From positions 1-41,085 of the IMG/VR virus record IMGVR_UViG_3300034069_000436: 41,085 nt of DNA. One strand, given 5' to 3'. The stretch comes from a virus. The notes beneath the pieces were generated by a model. The model did not search any database, was not told where the DNA came from, and was given only the letters and a program-made list of their open reading frames with translations. Below, piece after piece: positions 1 to 41,085 of the stretch (positions within the stretch are counted from its first letter, which is position 1; the number at the start of each line of letters is the position of its first letter). A program made the translations under genes and the position numbers.

Positions 1-141
1 ACGCTGCATGGGGTCGAGTTCCATAATCTGCCACATGTCGGTATCCAGCACCAGCGCGTCGCGCGTAGTGCCGATGTTCCGATCCGGCACGAACGCCAAC
101 TCGCCGAAGTCCGACACGTACACGTCGGCGCCGCCGATGAT
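1..141. repeat. Left copy of the 141-bp terminal direct repeat (identical to 40945-41085)
   Basis: Base-by-base comparison: acgctgcatggggtcgag...ggcgccgccgatgat occurs at both window ends. Both copies lie inside the capsid coding sequence. Confidence 0.97.
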
Positions 142-12976: not shown

Positions 12977-13062
12977 TCACACCATCCTTCGTTGTCGGAA
13001 CGGTCGAATATGAGGAATGCGGCCAAAGCGGCGATGGCAATCAGGGCGGACAGGATGCGCAC
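12973..13062 (-). CDS. Possible 29-aa single-pass membrane peptide
   Basis: My translation from the GTG at 13062: (M)RILSALIAIAALAAFLIFDRSDNEGWCE. It starts 2 nt after the Cro-like stop and ends in an ATGA overlap with the next gene. Confidence 0.3.
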   Translation of the reverse strand: MRILSALIAIAALAAFLIFDRSDNEGWCE

Positions 13063-13063
13063 C

Positions 13064-13258
13064 CTATCGGTCCACCATCATTTCAGGCATCGGCTTACCT
13101 GCAACGGCGCCGAGCATTGCGATCGTATTACGATGCAGCTTCGGGACGCCGTTGTAGCGCCAATAGGAAAACGCCTGCCGGCTGATCCGCATGTGCGCCC
13201 TGATTGGAGCGAATCCCAGCCGATCAAGAGCCGCTGCGTCGGGATGATGCTGTTTCAT
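13064..13258 (-). CDS. Cro/YdaS-like HTH transcriptional regulator
   Basis: Only the last 64 aa of track ORF 13064..14086 look real: MKQHHPDAAALDRLGFAPIRAHMRISRQAFSYWRYNGVPKLHRNTIAMLGAVAGKPMPEMMVDR. It is the first gene of the leftward block and faces the divergent control region. Confidence 0.65.
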   Translation of the reverse strand: MKQHHPDAAALDRLGFAPIRAHMRISRQAFSYWRYNGVPKLHRNTIAMLGAVAGKPMPEMMVDR

Positions 13259-13363
13259 GAAACGCGATATGACACGCCAAAATAATTGACGCAAGAGGGT
13301 TGACGCGCAAAGCCTTTGACGGCAGATAGGGGCAGCAGGCCACCCCGGCTTTGGGAGAGCACC
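13259..13363. promoter_or_regulatory. Divergent early control region with three TTGACG direct repeats
   Basis: TTGACG occurs at 13286-13291, 13300-13305 and 13316-13321 (spacing 14 and 16 nt), in an AT-richer stretch (aaaataattgac). SD GGGAGAG lies before the GTG at 13364. The Cro-like ATG at 13258 has almost no leader. Confidence 0.45.
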
Positions 13364-14143
13364 GTGACGACAACCGCACCGACGATCGATCAAGACCGCT
13401 TGGCGGAGGTTGCAAAGCGCGGCCTCGATAGCGGCGCACATCATGGCTTCGAAGATGGCATGTGCGCGATGGAAGCTGCCAGCTACATCGCTGGTGAGCC
13501 CTGGAGCGACCATCCCAAGTGCGTCAGCCCGGTCATCGCAGCGTTCCTTCGTAGCTGGAATGACAGCCTGCCAACCGATGAGCGTAACGCGTTGATAACG
13601 CCGGACGTGATCGCTATAACGATCGGCACGCGCGGGTCTGCCAAGCTGGAAGAGCGCCGCTCGCTGATGGCAGCCGACTGGCTGGTCCGCACGCATACCG
13701 TGGCATGGCTCCGGCTCGCGAAGCTGGACAAGCAAGCCGACGCGTTGGAAGGTTTGCCCGAAATTACGGCAATGGCGCAGGTGCCGCCAATGCGGGCACC
13801 TATTGAGGGTGTGCGTGCTGACGCAAACGCTGCCTGGGACGCTGCCGGGGCCGCTGCCGGGGCCGCTGCCAGGGACGCTGCCAGGGCCGCTGCCAGGGAC
13901 GCTGCCAGGGCCGCTGCCAGGGACGCTGCCAGGGCCGCTGCCAGGGCCGCTGCCTGGGCCGCTGCCGGGGCCGCTGCCGGGGCCGCTGCCAGGGCCGCTG
14001 CCGGGGCCGCTGCCGGGGCCGCTGCCTGGGACGCTGCCGGGGACGCTGCCAGGGCCGCGCTCATGCCGACCCGTCTGACTCTGCAAGCATCTGCTGGCGA
14101 TCTGATCCGCCGCATGTGCGCACTGACCGAGGTGGCCTCGTAA
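13364..14143 (+). CDS. Early protein with a globular N-terminal domain and a (A-A-W/G/R-D/A)19 repeat C-terminal half
   Basis: Track ORF 13316..14143. Start preferred at the GTG at 13364 after GGGAGAGcacc. The N-domain motif is CAMEAASYIAGEPWSDHPKCVSPVIAAFLRSWNDSLPTDERNAL. The C-terminal half is encoded by the 12-bp array. Confidence 0.7.
   Translation: MTTTAPTIDQDRLAEVAKRGLDSGAHHGFEDGMCAMEAASYIAGEPWSDHPKCVSPVIAAFLRSWNDSLPTDERNALITPDVIAITIGTRGSAKLEERRSLMAADWLVRTHTVAWLRLAKLDKQADALEGLPEITAMAQVPPMRAPIEGVRADANAAWDAAGAAAGAAARDAARAAARDAARAAARDAARAAARAAAWAAAGAAAGAAARAAAGAAAGAAAWDAAGDAARAALMPTRLTLQASAGDLIRRMCALTEVAS
13829..14056 (+). repeat. In-frame 12-bp tandem array, 19 units
   Basis: The unit is GCTGCC[T/G/A]GGG[A/C]C. 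I counted the units one by one: 13829-13840 ... 14045-14056. Only 2 of the 12 positions vary. Confidence 0.95.
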
Positions 14144-16707: not shown

Positions 16708-17239
16708 CCTGCTGTCCGCACTTCGCGAGCCGCCCGTCGTGGGTCGGTTCTACATGGTCCCGGTCATCCGCGACTACCCGCTGGGTGGCAAGCTCGGCAC
16801 CTGGCCTGTGATCGGGCCGAAACATTCGGACATCGATTTCCTCAATTTCCGAGACGAGCATTATCATGTCGATGCGCGGTTCGTCACCGCTGCCCAAGAG
16901 CGGGCCATCACTGTTGGCGGACAACGTAGCTTAGAGGCGGTTGTCGGCAGTTGGCCGCTTGCATCTTACAGGCACGAGTTGCCGAAGGGCAGGCCCGCAC
17001 TGGCTCGGCTGAAGTGTCGCCGCAGCGCTTATGGCTATGCCTATGGTCATCAGCCGGCAATCAAGAAGCTGCGTGAGCATTACGGCGACCCGGCCGAGCC
17101 TATCCGCCTCGCCGATAGACGCCTGCTCTGCCCGCACCGCAAGGCCGATCTGTCCAGCTTTGCTCCGGGCGATGATGGCCTCGTGATTTGCCCGCTTCAC
17201 GGCCTGCGCGTGCGTTGTGCTCAAGGCCAGACCTCATGA
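16700..17239 (+). CDS. Protein with a C-terminal Rieske-type [2Fe-2S] ligand motif
   Basis: 179 aa. CPH-x17-CPLH (CPHRKADLSSFAPGDDGLVICPLH) fits the Rieske pattern CxH-x(15-17)-CxxH. Confidence 0.55.
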   Translation: MADLLSALREPPVVGRFYMVPVIRDYPLGGKLGTWPVIGPKHSDIDFLNFRDEHYHVDARFVTAAQERAITVGGQRSLEAVVGSWPLASYRHELPKGRPALARLKCRRSAYGYAYGHQPAIKKLREHYGDPAEPIRLADRRLLCPHRKADLSSFAPGDDGLVICPLHGLRVRCAQGQTS

Positions 17240-17268
17240 CCCGTCAACCACAACCAAGGGAGGGCGCG

Positions 17269-17955
17269 ATGCCCGTTGAGAAGTTCGAAGTCCGCAACCG
17301 CTGGTCCAGTCGCATCCAGTTCACTGCCGAGATCACCTGCGCGCCCGACGCCACGATCGGCGTGAAGTTGGGGCTGGCAGTAAGGTGGGCGAGAAAGAGC
17401 GGTGCCGTCCTGCGCGGTGCCGACCTGAGCGGTGCCGTCCTGCGCGACGCCGTCCTGCGCGACGCCGTCCTGCGCGACGCCGACCTGCGCGACGCCGTCC
17501 TGCGCGACGCCGACCTGAGCGGTGCCGTCCTGCGCGACGCCGTCCTGCGCGACGCCGACCTGAGCGGTGCCGTCCTGCGCGACGCCGACCTGAGCGGTGC
17601 CGTCCTGCGCGGTGCCGTCCTGCGCGGTGCCGACTGGCTCCCGCGTATCACCAACATTCACCAGTCGATCTACAATGCCGCTCGCCAGGAAGGCGCCCTC
17701 GACATGGCATCGTGGCACCGTAATGGCTACTGCGGCACGACGCATTGCCGGGCTGGATGGGCGGTGGTGCTGACCGGCGAGGGCGGCCGGGTGCTTGAGG
17801 GCATCTACGGCACCAACGCCGCTGCTGCGCTGATTTATCAGGCCAGCGACCCAAAGCTGGAGCGTATCCCTAACTGGATCGCGTCAAACCAAGACGCGCT
17901 GGACGACATGCGGATGAAGGCGGAAGCGGAAGCTGCCTCTGCGGTCTCCTCATGA
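17269..17955 (+). CDS. Pentapeptide-repeat protein with a Cys/His-containing C-terminal domain
   Basis: Track ORF 17188..17955. Start at MPVEKFEV, preceded by AGGGAGGgcgcg. It carries 16 consecutive [G/D]A[V/D]L[R/S] pentapeptides. The C-domain motif is WHRNGYCGTTHCRAGWAVVL. Confidence 0.8.
   Translation: MPVEKFEVRNRWSSRIQFTAEITCAPDATIGVKLGLAVRWARKSGAVLRGADLSGAVLRDAVLRDAVLRDADLRDAVLRDADLSGAVLRDAVLRDADLSGAVLRDADLSGAVLRGAVLRGADWLPRITNIHQSIYNAARQEGALDMASWHRNGYCGTTHCRAGWAVVLTGEGGRVLEGIYGTNAAAALIYQASDPKLERIPNWIASNQDALDDMRMKAEAEAASAVSS
17401..17637 (+). repeat. In-frame 15-bp tandem array, about 16 units
   Basis: Units are GGTGCCGTCCTGCGC, GACGCCGTCCTGCGC, GACGCCGACCTGCGC, GACGCCGACCTGAGC and GGTGCCGACCTGAGC, counted consecutively from 17401. 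Several adjacent units are 15/15 identical. Confidence 0.95.
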
Positions 17956-31293: not shown

Positions 31294-33240
31294 TCAACCC
31301 CCACCCTGCGCTGCGGCGGCCGACTGCGCAGACTTGCCCAGCAATTCCATAATTGACGGAGAATTCTTTTGAGTTGTCGTTCCTGCGCTCACGTTCGTCC
31401 CGTACTTACCAGTCAACGCGCTAATTAGGTTGGCGTAGGCATCTGTTCCCACGTACGGCAGCGCAGCCGCAGCGTTCGCCAGCGCGATCGTCGGTGACAC
31501 ACCGTTGTAGGACGCCGCATCAAGACCGCTTGTCAGCCCCAGCGCAGAAAGAATCTGCTGCACCTGCGCCTGCTGTGCCGCGTCCGCCGAGGTCGCCGCA
31601 TTGAGGTTAAGCGTGCCGGTCTGATTGAACAGCGAACCGAGCGAAGATGCCGCTCCCTGCGCGTTGGACTGACCCTGGTTGTATAGCGACCCCGCCGCCT
31701 GCGCCGCGTTAGCCGCGTTCGACTGGCTCGCGTTGTACAGATTGCCCGCCCCAAGCGCTGCGCTCTGTGCGTTGGATTGCCCGGCATTGTAAAGGTTGCC
31801 CGCCGCCGATGCCGCACTGGCCGCGTTCGACTCGCCGGAATCGAATAGAGACCCGAGCGACTTCAACGTGTCCGCCTGCTGGCCGTAGCCGGTTGCGTAC
31901 TGGCTTCCCAGCGTGCCAGCCGCCGACAAGCGGTTCGCGGTGTCGTTGTTCAGCGTCGAGGACAGCCCCGATGCCGCTGCAAGCTGGTTGGCGGTGCGCG
32001 CCTGATCCGCCGACGAGAGCTGCCCGAGCGCGCCAAGGCGGGTCGCTGCATCGGCACGCGAGCCAGTGGACAGGCTGTTCGCCGCCGACAGCGATCGATC
32101 TTGCCCCGCGTTGTAGTTGGACGAGATTCGTCCCGACGCGCCCTCCATGTTGTTGCGCTCGGCGGCATAAGCGCTGTCCGCCTGTCCTGCTGCCGTGATT
32201 TGGCGGTTGGCTGCGTCATTGTAGGCGGTATAGCGCGTGGTGTTGTTGGCGTCGGCCACGGCAGAGCCCAACGCAGCATCATAGGCGGTCGATAGGCCAG
32301 CACCTAGGCCCGATGCCCCGAAACGCTGGTTCTGTGCCTTGCGAGCCGCCGCCGTCGCCTGATCCGTAATGGCGTCCACGAACGGGTTCACCGCCGGGTC
32401 GCCATTGATGAGCTTGCTGTAGAGCGCATAGCCCGGTTCGGCGTTAAGATACTTGCCGGCGATGACCGACTGATCGTAACCGTCCGCGCCGTTGGAAGTG
32501 CCGTTGTTGCCGGTGCCGGCGAACAATCCGAGCGTGCCGTCTCCCGCGCCCAACGTGCCGGTGCCGTACCCATAAGCCGCCAGCCCGCCCGTCGCGCTAT
32601 TGCGGCCCCCGTTCAACAACGAGGCATAGGCCAGCGATGCGGGGTTGGACGCATCGCCGTTCGCAATTGACGACAGCGTGCCCGTGGCTGGATTGCTGTA
32701 GGACGACCCCAGCGACGACAGGGCGGACAACGCAGGATTGTTCAGCGCCGACGACGACAGGCCATTTAGCGTACTGATGGACGGGTTAGCCGTTGCGGAT
32801 GTCGCCAGCCCGTTGAGCGTGCCGATCGACGAGTTGTTAAGCGCAGACGACGACAGGCCGCCCAGTGTACCAATCGACGGGTTGGCGGTGGCCGACGAGG
32901 TAAGCCCGCTCAACGTCGACAGCGCCGGGTTCTGCGCCGCCTGTAGCTGCTGATAGGTCTGCGCGCCGGGGTTTGCGCCGTACAGCGCGCCAGAACCGAT
33001 CGCCGAGGCGTTGGCCTGCGCCTGCTGCACGTAGGGTGACGCACTCAGCGACTGTGGCGCGATGTTGTTGAAGCCCGTCGTCAGCGCGCTCGACAGCCCT
33101 TGCAGGTTGCCTTGGTTCGCGTTGAACACCGACTGCCCGCTGGCGAGCGCTTGGTTTATGTACGGGGAGTACTGATCCAGCGGCGACGACGTGCTGGTGT
33201 TGTTGCTGGTCGTCTTATTGCTGGACGATGAAAGACCCAC
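31294..33240 (-). CDS. S/N/A/G/Q-rich repeat-containing internal virion / ejection protein (putative)
   Basis: 648 aa, GTG start preceded by ACGGAG. Seven ~16-aa NPxIxTLxGLxSSAxx repeats and GNLYNxGQSNAxxAA repeats. Confidence 0.5.
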   Translation of the reverse strand: MGLSSSSNKTTSNNTSTSSPLDQYSPYINQALASGQSVFNANQGNLQGLSSALTTGFNNIAPQSLSASPYVQQAQANASAIGSGALYGANPGAQTYQQLQAAQNPALSTLSGLTSSATANPSIGTLGGLSSSALNNSSIGTLNGLATSATANPSISTLNGLSSSALNNPALSALSSLGSSYSNPATGTLSSIANGDASNPASLAYASLLNGGRNSATGGLAAYGYGTGTLGAGDGTLGLFAGTGNNGTSNGADGYDQSVIAGKYLNAEPGYALYSKLINGDPAVNPFVDAITDQATAAARKAQNQRFGASGLGAGLSTAYDAALGSAVADANNTTRYTAYNDAANRQITAAGQADSAYAAERNNMEGASGRISSNYNAGQDRSLSAANSLSTGSRADAATRLGALGQLSSADQARTANQLAAASGLSSTLNNDTANRLSAAGTLGSQYATGYGQQADTLKSLGSLFDSGESNAASAASAAGNLYNAGQSNAQSAALGAGNLYNASQSNAANAAQAAGSLYNQGQSNAQGAASSLGSLFNQTGTLNLNAATSADAAQQAQVQQILSALGLTSGLDAASYNGVSPTIALANAAAALPYVGTDAYANLISALTGKYGTNVSAGTTTQKNSPSIMELLGKSAQSAAAAQGGG

Positions 33241-37100: not shown

Positions 37101-38435
37101 TCAGAGCTCCAGAACAGCATCGCGCATCGAGGCGAGCTGGGGTGTGGGTTGAAAATCGGCGGTGTAGGCGCAGGGCATCTCGCCCGCGGTCGACATCCAG
37201 CTGTTGTAGCCGTTGTCGAGTGTCCACTCGACCAGCATGCCGCCACCGGTCGACTGAACGATGGGCAGCGCGACATCGAGGTACTGCTTGCGGATGTTGC
37301 TCGCGATCCGCTCGTACTCGTAGGCGCTGTAGCTGGTCGGCGCGGGCGTATCGACCTTGCCATAGGCGTCGATGATGCCATCGCCGTAGCCCGTCCGGAC
37401 GTCGATCTCGGAGACGATGATCTTGAGCCCGAGGCCGACGAGGCCTTGCAGAAAGCTGCGCAGGCGCGGCGCCGAGAACGACAGCCGGAACTGCATGTGC
37501 GCCTGCTGGGCATAGCCATCAACCACTGCGCCCGCCTGTATCGCCGCCGTGATGCCGGCGAGCGTGTTCTGGGCAAGGTTGTTGAACGTCGACGAGCCCA
37601 GCTGCTCCGTCTGGTCCTGACACCAGAACAGCGGCACGCCGGGTAGCTTCTGCCGCACGCGAGCGATGGCGAACAGCACCGGCGCCAGATAGTCGTCCTG
37701 GGTGGCGGTCGAGGCGGTGCGGCCAGCGACCGTCGCCGCCGCGGTGTTCCACGGATTGGTCCGCCAGCCGCCCGGATTGGTGGAGCCCGCGGAGAAGAGC
37801 TCGTTCACGACGTCGGCGTTCGCGATGATGTCGGTGTATCCGGCGAGCAGCCCGCAGATCGCGTCGATGCGGGCGGCCATCAGCGTCTGCCACTGGCCGG
37901 GGTTCTGCTGGAGGTACGTGTCGATCCAGGTGCCGATGTCGCGCTTGGGGTAGACGCCGATGACGTGGCCGCGGACCTTCTTCCCCTTGGCTCGCGCGTC
38001 GTCCAGGAATGCCTTGGCGGGGTTGAGGTTGAAGCTGCCCAGCGACGGATTGAAGTTGTCGCCCATCATCACGTAGCCGGGCACGTACAAGTCGACGTTG
38101 TCCGCGATCCACGCCTGCCGGGTGGCATAGCCCGCTGGCCCCGCCGCGCCCATGACGTCGCCGCCCTGGATCGAGGTGCCGAGCAGGATGCCCTTGTTGG
38201 CGCTGATCGTCTTGAGCAGCCCGCCGGGATCGACGGTGTAGCTGCCGACCAAAGCATTCCCAGAAACATCTGTTTCTCGGTTATTAGCTAGGTCAATTAA
38301 GGTACCCGCAATGCGGGTGGGAGCGACCAAAATAACGGCGGGTTGATGCCCACCCATCGAATTGACGATGACATCCTCGTCAGGAGTGGGCTGCCGACCG
38401 CCATACGACGCCAGCGTGTCCGACAACACAGACAT
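37101..38435 (-). CDS. Tail-associated glycoside hydrolase, GH10-like (clan GH-A TIM barrel)
   Basis: 444 aa. The ordered motif series is KGKKVRGHVIGVY, ADVVNELF, LFWCQDQTE, VDGYAQQAHMQ, LKIIVSEIDVR, LVEWTLDNGYNSW. This parallels GH10 RGH / WDVVNE / NDYN / G.Q.H / ITELD / WG..D..SW. Confidence 0.65.
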   Translation of the reverse strand: MSVLSDTLASYGGRQPTPDEDVIVNSMGGHQPAVILVAPTRIAGTLIDLANNRETDVSGNALVGSYTVDPGGLLKTISANKGILLGTSIQGGDVMGAAGPAGYATRQAWIADNVDLYVPGYVMMGDNFNPSLGSFNLNPAKAFLDDARAKGKKVRGHVIGVYPKRDIGTWIDTYLQQNPGQWQTLMAARIDAICGLLAGYTDIIANADVVNELFSAGSTNPGGWRTNPWNTAAATVAGRTASTATQDDYLAPVLFAIARVRQKLPGVPLFWCQDQTEQLGSSTFNNLAQNTLAGITAAIQAGAVVDGYAQQAHMQFRLSFSAPRLRSFLQGLVGLGLKIIVSEIDVRTGYGDGIIDAYGKVDTPAPTSYSAYEYERIASNIRKQYLDVALPIVQSTGGGMLVEWTLDNGYNSWMSTAGEMPCAYTADFQPTPQLASMRDAVLEL

Positions 38436-40830: not shown

Positions 40831-41085
40831 TTACGACGGGGTGATATCGGCGATCACACCGGATGCCGCGTCATTGCTGCACCGCAGAGTAACCTCCGTG
40901 TACATGGCATCACGGTCGGCAAGCCCGGTCGTCGCCAGCTTGCGACGCTGCATGGGGTCGAGTTCCATAATCTGCCACATGTCGGTATCCAGCACCAGCG
41001 CGTCGCGCGTAGTGCCGATGTTCCGATCCGGCACGAACGCCAACTCGCCGAAGTCCGACACGTACACGTCGGCGCCGCCGATGAT
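40831..41085 (-). CDS. Major capsid protein, C-terminal segment (same gene as 1..864; 40945-41085 duplicates 1-141)
   Basis: Track ORF 40831..41067 is in frame with my capsid reading across the overlap. Position 40945 corresponds to position 1 at a codon boundary. Confidence 0.85.
   Translation of the reverse strand: MIGGADVYVSDFGELAFVPDRNIGTTRDALVLDTDMWQIMELDPMQRRKLATTGLADRDAMYTEVTLRCSNDAASGVIADITPS
40945..41085. repeat. Right copy of the 141-bp terminal direct repeat
   Basis: Identical to 1-141. Confidence 0.97.

What the first reader, a model, noticed from the sequence alone, without database searches (positions are those of the whole stretch)
13829..14056. 19-unit in-frame 12-bp minisatellite in the first early gene, varying at only two nucleotide positions
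The unit GCTGCC[T/G/A]GGG[A/C]C is repeated 19 times without interruption. All variation is confined to the first base of the xGG codon (W/G/R) and the middle base of the GxC codon (D/A). This gives (AA[W/G/R][D/A])19, probably a long Ala-rich helical array.

The array is stop-free in several frames. Track ORFs cross it in two plus and two minus frames, which explains the spurious PGSGPGS and LPGPLPG ORFs. The gene is the first one downstream of the divergent early promoter region. Its N-terminal domain (CAMEAASYIAGEPWSDHPKCVSPVIAAFLRSWND) is one I recognise only from uncharacterised proteins.

Restricting variation to two sites suggests selection on a combinatorial surface, or recent unit shuffling. 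The array is also a classic substrate for slipped-strand length variation.
Basis: partly seen in the sequence, partly recalled or inferred. Interest (0 to 1): 0.68.

Follow-up and report, generated by a model that had tools for sequence, protein, structure and literature searches.

The report
Hypervariable alanine-repeat stalk in phage protein
A phage gene contains a real 19-copy, 12-base in-frame repeat that most likely forms a variable-length two-helix stalk on a protein from a very large uncharacterised family, and relatives show the repeat evolving quickly while selection keeps a mix of amino acids at two positions.

Summary
Positions 13829-14056 hold 19 gap-free 12-nt units, GCTGCC[A/G/T]GGG[C/A]C, inside a 259-aa gene (13364-14143, +).

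The gene belongs to a very large unnamed phage and prophage family. Its only library match is phrog_3416. A search of 50%-identity representatives found at least 5,001 matches, spread over many bacterial phyla.

Every close relative carries an (Ala-Ala-[W/G/R]-[D/A])n array at the same place, with n from about 2 to about 60 and a different unit order. AlphaFold places the array at the tip of a native helical hairpin in a compact all-alpha domain that has no PDB match. Adding units would therefore lengthen a protruding stalk.

In 94 arrays, the silent codon positions are identical within an array but differ freely between arrays. Only nt 7 and nt 11 stay polymorphic. Arginine is AGG or CGG within an array, and almost never both (3 mixed arrays against 70 expected). 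This fits slippage-driven concerted evolution plus amino-acid-level selection for heterogeneity. It argues against DGR-like hypermutation.

The biochemical function is unknown. An early-region position and fast turnover suggest a role in host conflict, which is inference only. The exact unit count cannot be verified without reads, and related contigs often break inside the array.

The parts
12977..13363 (.). Divergent intergenic region upstream of the gene. It carries three TTGACG motifs (about 13287, 13301 and 13317) and a Shine-Dalgarno-like GGGAGAG at 13353-13359.
   Evidence: Sequence read. The promoter scan gave only one weak sigma-70-like site. The cumulative GC-skew minimum lies here.
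13364..14143 (+). The gene: GTG start, 259 codons plus stop. Its product equals P0001 and is a member of phrog_3416.
   Evidence: ORF. The gene call of identical length in the source database is P0001, 259 aa, on a contig of 41085 bases. phrog_3416 matches at E 5.5e-8 over residues 7-222.
13364..13828 (+). Conserved all-alpha N-terminal domain, aa 1-155. Invariant residues are G24, H26, C34, E37, E45, P51, C53, F61, N66, D67, R99, D105, W106, R109 and W115.
   Evidence: Alignments A1 and A2. AlphaFold pLDDT is above 90 for roughly residues 10-110. There are 657 word-index homologues and at least 5,001 representative clusters. No Pfam, NCBIfam, PADLOC or PDB relative was found.
13829..14056 (+). 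The 19-unit 12-nt in-frame minisatellite GCTGCC[A/G/T]GGG[C/A]C. It encodes aa 156-231, (AA[W/G/R][D/A])19, and is predicted to form the two arms and tip of a helical hairpin.
   Evidence: AlphaFold gives helices 144-195 and 202-253 with a turn at 196-201, and pLDDT 57-81 in the array.
14057..14140 (+). Conserved C-terminal helix, aa 232-259 (ALMPTRLTLQASAGDLIRRMCALTEVAS). The family motif is L-x-P-T-x3-L-Q-x-S-A-x2-L-x2-R-M. The helix is predicted to fold back onto the N-terminal domain.
   Evidence: T236, L240, Q241, L247, R250 and M251 are invariant in A1. pLDDT is 89-94. The same helix in the short-array member P0015 has pLDDT 96-98.

Best explanation
**What the array encodes.** The array codes for a 76-residue (Ala-Ala-[Trp/Gly/Arg]-[Asp/Ala])19 segment of a 259-aa phage protein.

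**Where it sits.** The segment lies at the tip of a helical hairpin. That hairpin is a native part of a compact all-alpha domain, made of the N-terminal 155 aa plus a C-terminal helix that folds back onto them. Each added or lost 12-nt unit therefore lengthens or shortens a protruding two-helix stalk without disturbing the domain.

**How it evolves.** The DNA behaves as a minisatellite. Replication slippage and unequal recombination add, delete and homogenise units. Selection on the protein keeps a mixture of residues at the third and fourth positions of the tetrad.

**Why W/G/R and D/A.** Trp has only the codon TGG, and columns are homogenised across all units. The alternatives at position 3 are therefore confined to NGG (Gly GGG, Arg AGG or CGG), and those at position 4 to GMY (Asp or Ala).

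**Function.** The protein belongs to a very large uncharacterised family of accessory proteins in phage and prophage early regions. Its biochemical activity is unknown. The most likely role is a fast-evolving interaction or spacing element used in phage-host or phage-phage conflict.

**Shown:** the repeat, the gene, the family, length and order variation, the codon pattern, and the lack of known relatives.

**Predicted:** the hairpin-stalk geometry.

**Inferred:** slippage as the mechanism, selection for heterogeneity, and the role in host conflict.
For: **Repeat and gene:**

**Family:**
- 657 homologues were found with the N-terminal domain alone, all with an array at the same site.
- There are 273 relatives in viral contigs and 87 in species-representative genomes spanning Proteobacteria, Actinomycetota, Acidobacteriota, Verrucomicrobiota, Gemmatimonadota and Planctomycetota.
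- At least 5,001 of the 50%-identity representatives match.
- An isolated phage, Ralstonia RS-CA1, carries a member.

**Length and order variation:**
- Arrays run from about 2 to about 60 units.
- Among five complete pairs with 100% identical N-domain DNA, L017 and L027 have genes of 246 and 402 aa, so L027 carries 39 more units. Two other pairs differ by one residue in the array.

**Structure:**
- For the window protein the mean pLDDT is 84.7, with a hairpin of helix 144-195, a turn, then helix 202-253. The C-terminal helix scores 89-94.
- The short-array member P0015 scores pLDDT 95.2 and pTM 0.89, with the same hairpin (helices 129-149 and 155-177).

**Concerted evolution plus selection:**
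- In 63 viral arrays the mean within-array heterozygosity per unit nucleotide is 0, 0.03, 0, 0.02.58.13.05.08.44.09. The silent nucleotides 3 and 6 take all four bases between arrays.
- The same pattern recurs in 31 genome arrays.
- Position-3 codons are TGG 426, GGG 309, AGG 262 and CGG 112. CGC and GGC are absent from the listed codons (the 14 commonest), although they dominate in the N-domains.
- Arrays are AGG-only or CGG-only. Three of 80 are mixed, against 69.9 expected.
- GAC goes with GCC and GAT goes with GCT within an array.
- Adjacent units avoid the same residue type (lag-1 z of -5.3, -2.9 and -3.8), the opposite of what simple duplication gives.

**Context:**
- In prophages the gene lies in the early operon between the immunity region and the recombination and integrase genes.
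- A YqaJ exonuclease gene lies within 6 kb in 14 of 80 viral loci, on the same strand in 13 of them.
- One prophage has an Acb2/Tad1-type gene four genes downstream.
Against: - No experiment or homology assigns a function. The host-conflict role rests only on position and rate of change.
- Confidence in the array part of the model is moderate (pLDDT 57-81). AlphaFold tends to draw helices for Ala-rich low-complexity sequence.
- Gly at about 30% of the third positions would weaken a helix.
- No 7- or 9-unit periodicity was found, which a regular coiled-coil core would give.
- Arrays are related by descent, and some loci are duplicates, so the counts of arrays are not independent.
- Some length differences between near-identical contigs could be assembly errors. 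Contigs often break in the array, and some records read through it out of frame.
- The window's own array has a run of seven Arg units, unlike the family trend.
Confidence: 0.55

Rival explanations
1. **Neutral spacer.** The array is a tolerated low-complexity insertion in a surface hairpin. Its length drifts by slippage. Positions 3 and 4 vary only because they are unconstrained. There is no selection for diversity and no role in conflict.
For: - Length varies over a 30-fold range with no obvious optimum.
- Unit order is close to random apart from lag 1.
- Some arrays lack Gly, or Trp, or Arg altogether.
- Other subfamilies carry quite different low-complexity arrays at the same site, such as ATAADD in P0209 and A/V/D arrays in L126, L132 and L157.
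Against: - Truly unconstrained sites should be no more polymorphic than the fourfold-degenerate silent sites of the same units. Yet heterozygosity is 0.58 and 0.44 at nt 7 and nt 11, against 0.01-0.03 at the silent sites.
- The synonymous AGG/CGG pair is almost never polymorphic within an array, while the amino-acid-changing alleles at the same nucleotide always are.
- The same alphabet persists across phyla.
- Adjacent units avoid the same residue type.
Confidence: 0.22
2. **Assembly artefact in the details.** A repeat exists, but the 19 units and their order in this window are wrong, either collapsed, expanded or mis-ordered.
For: - 21 of 80 viral contigs and 18 of 80 genome contigs end inside the homologous array.
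- Out-of-frame read-through occurs in P0202, L110, L119 and L120.
- L017 and L027 differ by 39 units despite identical flanks.
Against: - The longest exact internal repeat is 63 nt, and no 77-mer repeats within the array.
- The contig closes with a 141-nt overlap, which suggests a k=141 assembly that would resolve the array.
- The array is in frame and flanked on both sides by the conserved parts of the protein.
- Arrays of 22-54 units lie within megabase-scale contigs of isolates and in one chromosome-level MAG (L094, L099, L105, L122, L124).
Confidence: 0.1
3. **DNA-level element.** The 12-nt repeats act as DNA, for example as iterons of a replication origin, a recombination hotspot or a protein-binding array. 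The coding capacity is secondary.
For: - The array lies at the strand-switch and cumulative GC-skew minimum of the genome.
- It lies next to the early control region.
- Phage origins can lie inside genes (general knowledge, for example lambda ori in gene O).
Against: - Between arrays it is the wobble positions (nt 3, 6 and 12) that change, while the amino-acid pattern is kept. That is the signature of selection on the protein.
- The array occurs in phages and prophages with unrelated replication modules, and in variable gene neighbourhoods.
- Copy number ranges from 2 to about 60.
- The single strand folds less well than shuffled sequence (z = +6.9).
Confidence: 0.05
4. **Targeted hypermutation.** A diversity-generating retroelement, or some other site-specific mutator, rewrites nt 7 and nt 11. 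In this window these are the only positions of the unit that can be adenine.
For: In the window's unit, adenine occurs only at the two variable positions. This resembles the adenine-specific mutagenesis of DGRs.
Against: - No reverse transcriptase was found among the ORFs scanned, including all ORFs of 300 aa or more taken as genes.
- There is no second (template) copy of the unit in the genome.
- Arrays whose silent nt 6 is adenine (L001, L002, L003, L005 and others) show zero variation there.
- Blind mutagenesis would mix AGG and CGG in one array. Three arrays are mixed, against 70 expected.
Confidence: 0.03

Closest known systems
PHROG family phrog_3416 (phage proteins of unknown function)
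   Same: The window protein matches the profile over residues 7-222 at E 5.5e-8. It is a phage-encoded protein of similar length.
   Different: The family has no annotation, structure or described function. The repeat, its evolutionary behaviour and the breadth of the family did not turn up in the literature searched.
Variable in-frame minisatellite in gene clg55 of Corynebacterium phage CL31 (PMC8002715)
   Same: It is a tandem in-frame repeat in a phage gene that short-read assembly could not resolve. Copy number differed (4, 6 or 8) between plaques of one phage stock.
   Different: The unit there is 42 bp (14 aa), with few copies, one variant codon and an unrelated protein. No family-wide, cross-phylum pattern of column-restricted polymorphism is reported.
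Diversity-generating retroelement (DGR) variable regions
   Same: Variation is confined to a few defined nucleotide positions of a phage protein-coding segment, giving a combinatorial set of residues.
   Different: There is no reverse transcriptase, no template repeat and no adenine specificity, and synonymous alleles are not mixed. Diversity here comes from tandem-repeat turnover plus selection.
Tetrapeptide-repeat surface antigens such as the Plasmodium circumsporozoite NANP/NVDP repeats, and tandem-repeat bacterial surface proteins such as streptococcal M and alpha-C proteins (from general knowledge)
   Same: These are 12-nt or longer in-frame units with only a few variant types. Copy number and order differ between strains, and the arrays are homogenised by concerted evolution.
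   Different: Those are exposed antigens of cellular pathogens under immune pressure and are not helical hairpins. Here the protein is a cytoplasmic-looking phage early-region protein, and no signal peptide was looked for.
Alanine-rich helical hairpins and antiparallel 'Alacoil' packing, for example the hyperactive type I antifreeze protein Maxi (from general knowledge)
   Same: It is a long Ala-rich helix predicted to fold back on itself as a two-helix hairpin.
   Different: Those have 7- or 11-residue periodicity. Here the period is 4, and no 7- or 9-unit phasing of residue types is seen. The geometry is predicted only.

Membership tests
phrog_3416 | Significant match to the family profile HMM | tested here: met
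   E 5.5e-8, 34 bits, protein residues 7-222 against profile positions 2-207 of 248.
Any Pfam-A, NCBIfam or PADLOC family | Profile match at or near the curated threshold | tested here: not met
   The window protein has no family match. The 27 members scanned gave only scattered hits at E >= 0.015 in single members.
Diversity-generating retroelement target | Reverse transcriptase gene in the element | tested here: not met
   No RT family was found among the ORFs scanned against Pfam and PHROGs, including all ORFs of 300 aa or more taken as genes.
Diversity-generating retroelement target | A near-identical template repeat elsewhere in the genome | tested here: not met
   All exact matches to the unit pattern lie in the array. 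Only six scattered single 12-mers with one mismatch lie elsewhere. TRF finds no second array of this unit.
Diversity-generating retroelement target | Variation specific to template adenines, giving any base | tested here: not met
   Arrays with A at silent nt 6 show no variation there. AGG and CGG are mutually exclusive within arrays, with 3 mixed against 69.9 expected.
Phase-variable contingency locus (simple-sequence on/off switch) | A change in repeat number shifts the reading frame or the promoter spacing | tested here: not met
   The unit is 12 nt, so every copy-number change stays in frame. The 59 complete viral homologues read through to the conserved C-terminal helix. The few out-of-frame records look like sequencing errors.
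Variable-number tandem repeat (minisatellite) coding region | Head-to-tail units whose number differs between close relatives | tested here: met
   There are 19 units here, and about 2 to 60 in relatives. L027 carries 39 more units than L017 despite 100% identical flanking DNA. Variation within this phage's own population was not testable.
Pentapeptide-repeat proteins (PF00805) | Five-residue A(D/N)LXX repeats that match the Pfam model | tested here: not met
   The period is 4 residues and there is no Pfam hit. The neighbouring gene 17188-17955 is the pentapeptide protein (E 1.1e-24).
Regular antiparallel coiled coil or Alacoil hairpin | Heptad-phased (or 11-residue-phased) small core residues along both helices | tested here: inconclusive
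   AlphaFold predicts a two-helix hairpin. Residue types show no 7- or 9-unit periodicity. No coordinates or experiment were available.
Iteron-type replication origin | The repeats are conserved as DNA rather than as codons | tested here: not met
   The wobble columns 3, 6 and 12 differ freely between arrays, while the encoded AA-x-(D/A) pattern is kept.

The most novel reading that the evidence does not exclude
The array is a retroelement-free diversification device. A minisatellite continually reshuffles a small alphabet (W/G/R by D/A) and the length of a projecting helical stalk. That gives phages across many bacterial phyla a fast-evolving interaction or decoy surface on a new-fold, possibly enzymatic, early protein that counters or evades host defences. 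The domain has an invariant Cys at the N-terminus of a helix, plus invariant His, Cys and acidic residues.
Probability: 0.2. Interest if true: 0.8.

Novelty: new variant of a known kind. Interest (0 to 1): 0.57.

Why it matters
**A large unnamed family.** The N-terminal domain matches at least 5,001 of the 50%-identity representatives. Members occur in phages and prophages of Proteobacteria, Actinomycetota, Acidobacteriota and other phyla. The family has no Pfam or NCBIfam model and no solved or matching structure, and the literature searches found nothing on it.

**An unusually clean evolutionary signature.** The tandem repeat is homogenised at every silent site, yet it stays polymorphic at exactly the two nucleotides that change amino acids, in nearly every array examined. 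The synonymous AGG/CGG pair at one of those nucleotides acts as a built-in control, and it separates selection from hypermutation.

**If the stalk is an interaction surface.** This would be a simple, widespread alternative to DGRs for generating protein diversity in phages. It would also be a candidate family for anti-defence or host-takeover screens.

**A practical point.** These arrays are frequent break points of short-read assemblies, in about a quarter of related contigs. Copy numbers in databases should therefore be treated with care.

Tried and rejected
- **DGR-like adenine mutagenesis.** This was suggested by the fact that the two variable positions are the only adenines of the window's unit. 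It was rejected on four grounds: there is no RT and no template repeat, silent adenines are invariant in other arrays, and AGG and CGG do not mix.
- **Named families and structures.** Pfam, NCBIfam and PADLOC gave no family. A PDB sequence profile search gave nothing below E 0.6. Foldseek against the PDB gave no match with E below 1 for either model. BFVD returned only uncharacterised phage proteins.
- **Literature.** Searches for the peptide motifs and for phage minisatellites found nothing on this family. They found only the CL31 precedent.
- **Coiled-coil phasing.** There is no 7- or 9-unit periodicity of W, G, R or D.
- **Slipped-strand hairpin potential.** The array folds less well than shuffles (z = +6.9).
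- **Known RNAs.** There are no Rfam hits and no tRNAs.
- **A fixed partner gene.** Neighbourhoods vary. YqaJ exonuclease lies within 6 kb in only 14 of 80 loci.
- **Near-identical phages, to compare arrays directly.** Exact searches with the two flanks found nothing in metagenome or viral contigs. The best non-self protein is 76% identical.
- **Mirror pairing of units across the predicted hairpin.** This was inspected by eye for the window only. No complementarity (W opposite G, or R opposite D) was apparent, and it was not pursued.
Full report
**1. The observation**

Positions 13829-14056 hold 19 head-to-tail 12-nt units with no gaps. Tandem Repeats Finder reports 13828-14058, period 12, 19.2 copies, 0% indels and score 350.

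Ten of the twelve columns are invariant. Column 7 is A9/G7/T3 and column 11 is C13/A6. That gives six unit types, which translate as AA[W/G/R][D/A].

All exact matches to GCTGCCNGGGNC in the 41-kb window are in the array, and there is no second copy elsewhere. If the 16 departures from the consensus fell at random, the chance of all landing in two columns is about 2e-11.

The array is open in two plus and two minus frames, which accounts for the PGSGPGS, LPGPLPG and AAPAAAL shadow ORFs.

**2. The gene and the genome**

- **The gene.** It runs 13364-14143 on the plus strand. It has a GTG start five bases after a GGGAGAG motif and encodes 259 aa. The source database made the same gene call (P0001).
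- **The phage.** The window is a phage genome. It encodes portal, large terminase, scaffold, virion proteins, primase, two HNH endonucleases, a YqaJ-type exonuclease, a methyltransferase-like protein, a lysozyme-like protein and a GH10-like protein.
- **Assembly.** The two ends share an exact 141-nt repeat, so this is a circular assembly of about 40.9 kb.
- **Relatives.** The portal is only about 30% identical to those of cultured podoviruses.
- **Position.** The gene is the first plus-strand gene after a 387-nt divergent gap. A consensus promoter scan gave only one weak site there.

**3. The family**

The N-terminal 155 aa alone retrieve 657 proteins of 127-272 aa. Every close relative inspected has three parts: the conserved N-terminal domain, an (AA-x-x)n array at the same place, and a conserved C-terminal helix with the motif L-x-P-T-x3-L-Q-x-S-A-x2-L-x2-R-M.

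A full scan of 1.84 billion 50%-identity representatives gives at least 5,001 hits at E <= 1e-3 and 2,132 at E <= 1e-10.

Relatives occur in several collections:
- 273 viral contigs carry one.
- Species-representative genomes of Alpha-, Beta- and Gammaproteobacteria, Actinomycetota, Acidobacteriota, Verrucomicrobiota, Gemmatimonadota and Planctomycetota carry relatives. The best of these is a Beijerinckiaceae MAG at 81% identity.
- The isolated Ralstonia phage RS-CA1 has a member.

The only library match is phrog_3416, of unknown function. Pfam, NCBIfam, PADLOC, PDB sequences and the literature searches gave nothing.

**4. Structure (predicted)**

For the window protein, AlphaFold gives a confident all-alpha N-terminal domain, with block-mean pLDDT of 93-98 over residues 11-110. 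It then gives a long hairpin: helix 144-195, a turn at 196-201, and helix 202-253. The C-terminal helix scores pLDDT 89-94 and packs back on the domain. The array itself scores 57-81.

A natural short-array member, P0015 (187 aa, about two units), is predicted at pLDDT 95.2 and pTM 0.89. It has the same hairpin in miniature, with helices 129-149 and 155-177.

The array is therefore an expansion at the tip of a native hairpin. Both ends are anchored to the domain, so unit gain or loss changes the length of a projecting stalk. For the window, 52 residues per arm gives about 78 Å, which is my estimate from 1.5 Å per helical residue.

Neither model has a significant PDB match. The BFVD library returned only uncharacterised phage proteins.

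**5. How the array evolves**

I extracted the DNA of arrays with at least 8 units from 63 viral loci and, separately, from 31 bacterial genome loci.

- **Heterozygosity by column.** In the viral set, the mean within-array heterozygosity for the 12 unit nucleotides is 0, 0.03, 0, 0.02.58.13.05.08.44.09. In the genome set it is 0, 0.03, 0, 0.01.58.05.02.02.46.05.
- **Silent positions.** The silent third positions of the two Ala codons (nt 3 and nt 6) take all four bases between arrays, yet they are uniform within each array. This is concerted evolution. The units of an array share a very recent common origin or are continually homogenised, as replication slippage and unequal recombination would do.
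- **Codons at tetrad position 3.** Across 1,255 units, the position-3 codon is almost always NGG: TGG 426, GGG 309, AGG 262, CGG 112. CGC and GGC are absent from the listed codons (the 14 commonest), although they are the preferred Arg and Gly codons in the N-domains of the same genes.
- **Why NGG.** Trp has only TGG, and columns 8 and 9 are shared by all units. Gly must therefore be GGG, and Arg must be AGG or CGG.
- **The decisive control.** AGG and CGG are synonymous alleles of the variable nucleotide itself. Arrays are AGG-only or CGG-only: 36, 16 and 2 mixed in the viral set, and 16, 10 and 1 mixed in the genome set. Pooled, 3 of 80 are mixed, against 69.9 expected if the two were drawn freely.
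- **Position 4.** GAC goes with GCC and GAT goes with GCT within an array.

Within an array, then, only alleles that change the amino acid are polymorphic. That is what amino-acid-level selection for heterogeneity predicts. Blind hypermutation predicts something else.

Two further observations fit this:
- Adjacent units carry the same residue type less often than chance (lag-1 z of -5.3 for W, -2.9 for G and -3.8 for R). Simple duplication would give the opposite.
- Arrays change faster than their flanks. Among five complete pairs with 100% identical N-domain DNA, one pair differs by 39 units and two pairs differ by one residue inside the array.

These arrays are related by descent, and a few are duplicates. 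The counts are descriptive, not independent trials.

**6. Function**

Nothing assigns a biochemical function.

- **Prophage context.** In four prophages the gene sits in the early operon that runs from the immunity region (HTH or S24 repressor-like genes) towards the recombination genes (Rad52-like, SSB, NinB) and the integrase. In lambda this operon holds accessory host-modulating genes (general knowledge).
- **Viral contigs.** A YqaJ exonuclease gene lies within 6 kb in 14 of 80 loci, on the same strand in 13 of them. One prophage has an Acb2/Tad1-type gene four genes downstream.
- **This window.** The same early operon carries a pentapeptide-repeat protein, a PAPS-reductase-like protein and a methyltransferase-like protein.
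- **The domain.** It has 18 invariant residues (alignment A2), including H26, C34 (at the N-terminus of a helix), C53 and several acidic residues and arginines. That hints at a binding or catalytic site.

My best guess is that this is an early accessory protein whose stalk is a fast-evolving interaction or spacing element in phage-host or phage-phage conflict. This step is inference only.

**7. Rivals**

- **Neutral spacer.** This is the main rival. It explains the wide length range but not the 20-fold or greater excess of replacement over silent polymorphism. It also does not explain the AGG/CGG exclusivity.
- **Assembly error in the details.** This cannot be excluded without reads. Related contigs end inside the array in 21 of 80 and 18 of 80 cases, and a few records read through it out of frame. 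Against it, this array has no exact internal repeat longer than 63 nt, and the contig looks like a k=141 assembly. Arrays of 22-54 units also lie within megabase-scale contigs of isolates and in one chromosome-level MAG.
- **DNA-level role such as iterons.** This is unlikely, because the wobble bases are what differ between arrays. The single strand also folds worse than shuffles.
- **DGR-like mutagenesis.** This fails each defining feature that was tested.

**8. Comparison and verdict**

In-frame minisatellites that vary within a phage population are known. Gene clg55 of Corynebacterium phage CL31, with a 42-bp unit, is one example (PMC8002715). Repeat-driven variation of surface proteins is classic in cellular pathogens (general knowledge).

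Three things did not turn up in anything I could search: the protein family, its predicted fold and stalk architecture, and the cross-phylum pattern of a 12-nt unit GCN-GCN-NGG-GMY homogenised everywhere except the two replacement sites.

I rate it a new variant of a known kind, of moderate to good interest.

Noticed in passing
window 17404-17626 (gene 17188-17955, +): A second in-frame minisatellite. It has 14.9 copies of a 15-nt unit, GCCG[T/A]CCTG[C/A]GCG[GT/AC], encoding (A[V/D]L[R/S][G/D])n inside a pentapeptide-repeat protein (PF00805, E 1.1e-24). Here the silent nt 15 co-varies with the unit type (GGT against GAC), unlike the 12-nt array.
   Followed up: partly
window 1-141 and 40945-41085: There is an exact 141-nt direct repeat at the two ends of the window. 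This indicates a circular or terminally redundant assembly of about 40,944 bp, and probably a k=141 assembler.
   Followed up: partly
L003, L004, L006, L010, L030, L034, L036, L039, L041, L044, L046, L057, L059, L061-L064, L072, L074, L076, L079; L086, L087, L097, L098, L102 and others: About a quarter of related contigs (21 of 80 viral, 18 of 80 genomic) stop inside the homologous array. These repeats are systematic break points of metagenome assemblies.
   Followed up: yes
P0202; L110, L119, L120 (array regions): Some database records read through the array in a shifted frame (GRRTGRR..., LRGTLRGT..., SRSGSRSG...). L110 also carries a masked run of N. These are probably indel errors in the repeat.
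   Followed up: no
L121, L126, L132, L143, L157, L158; P0209: A mostly actinobacterial subfamily carries quite different low-complexity arrays at the equivalent site, either A/V/D-rich (such as AVAVAAADAV) or ATAADD. They are flanked by extra conserved helices. This loop seems to be a recurrent site of repeat expansion.
   Followed up: no
P0155 (890 aa): One relative is a fusion. An unrelated region of about 620 aa precedes the conserved domain (matched at residues 629-762), followed by a short degenerate array.
   Followed up: no
window 13287-13325: Three TTGACG motifs, spaced 14-16 nt apart, lie just upstream of the gene in the divergent intergenic region. They could be -35 elements or operator sites.
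   Followed up: no
window 37101-38435 (-): A 444-aa ORF in the structural module matches glycosyl hydrolase family 10 (PF00331, E 2.3e-19). It may be a virion-associated polysaccharide depolymerase.
   Followed up: no
window 31691-31832 (inside ORF 31294-33240, -): TRF reports a degenerate 54-nt repeat (2.6 copies, 65% matches) inside a 648-aa ORF that has no PHROG or Pfam match.
   Followed up: no
L082 11926-12195: In the Hyphomicrobium methylovorum prophage, a gene with an Acb2/Tad1 hairpin domain (an anti-CBASS/anti-Thoeris sponge family) lies four genes downstream of the family member.
   Followed up: no
L081 3959-4615 (Ralstonia phage RS-CA1, XDQ96087.1): In this cultured phage the family member lies between the annotated endolysin and holin genes, not in an early operon. 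It offers an experimentally tractable member.
   Followed up: partly
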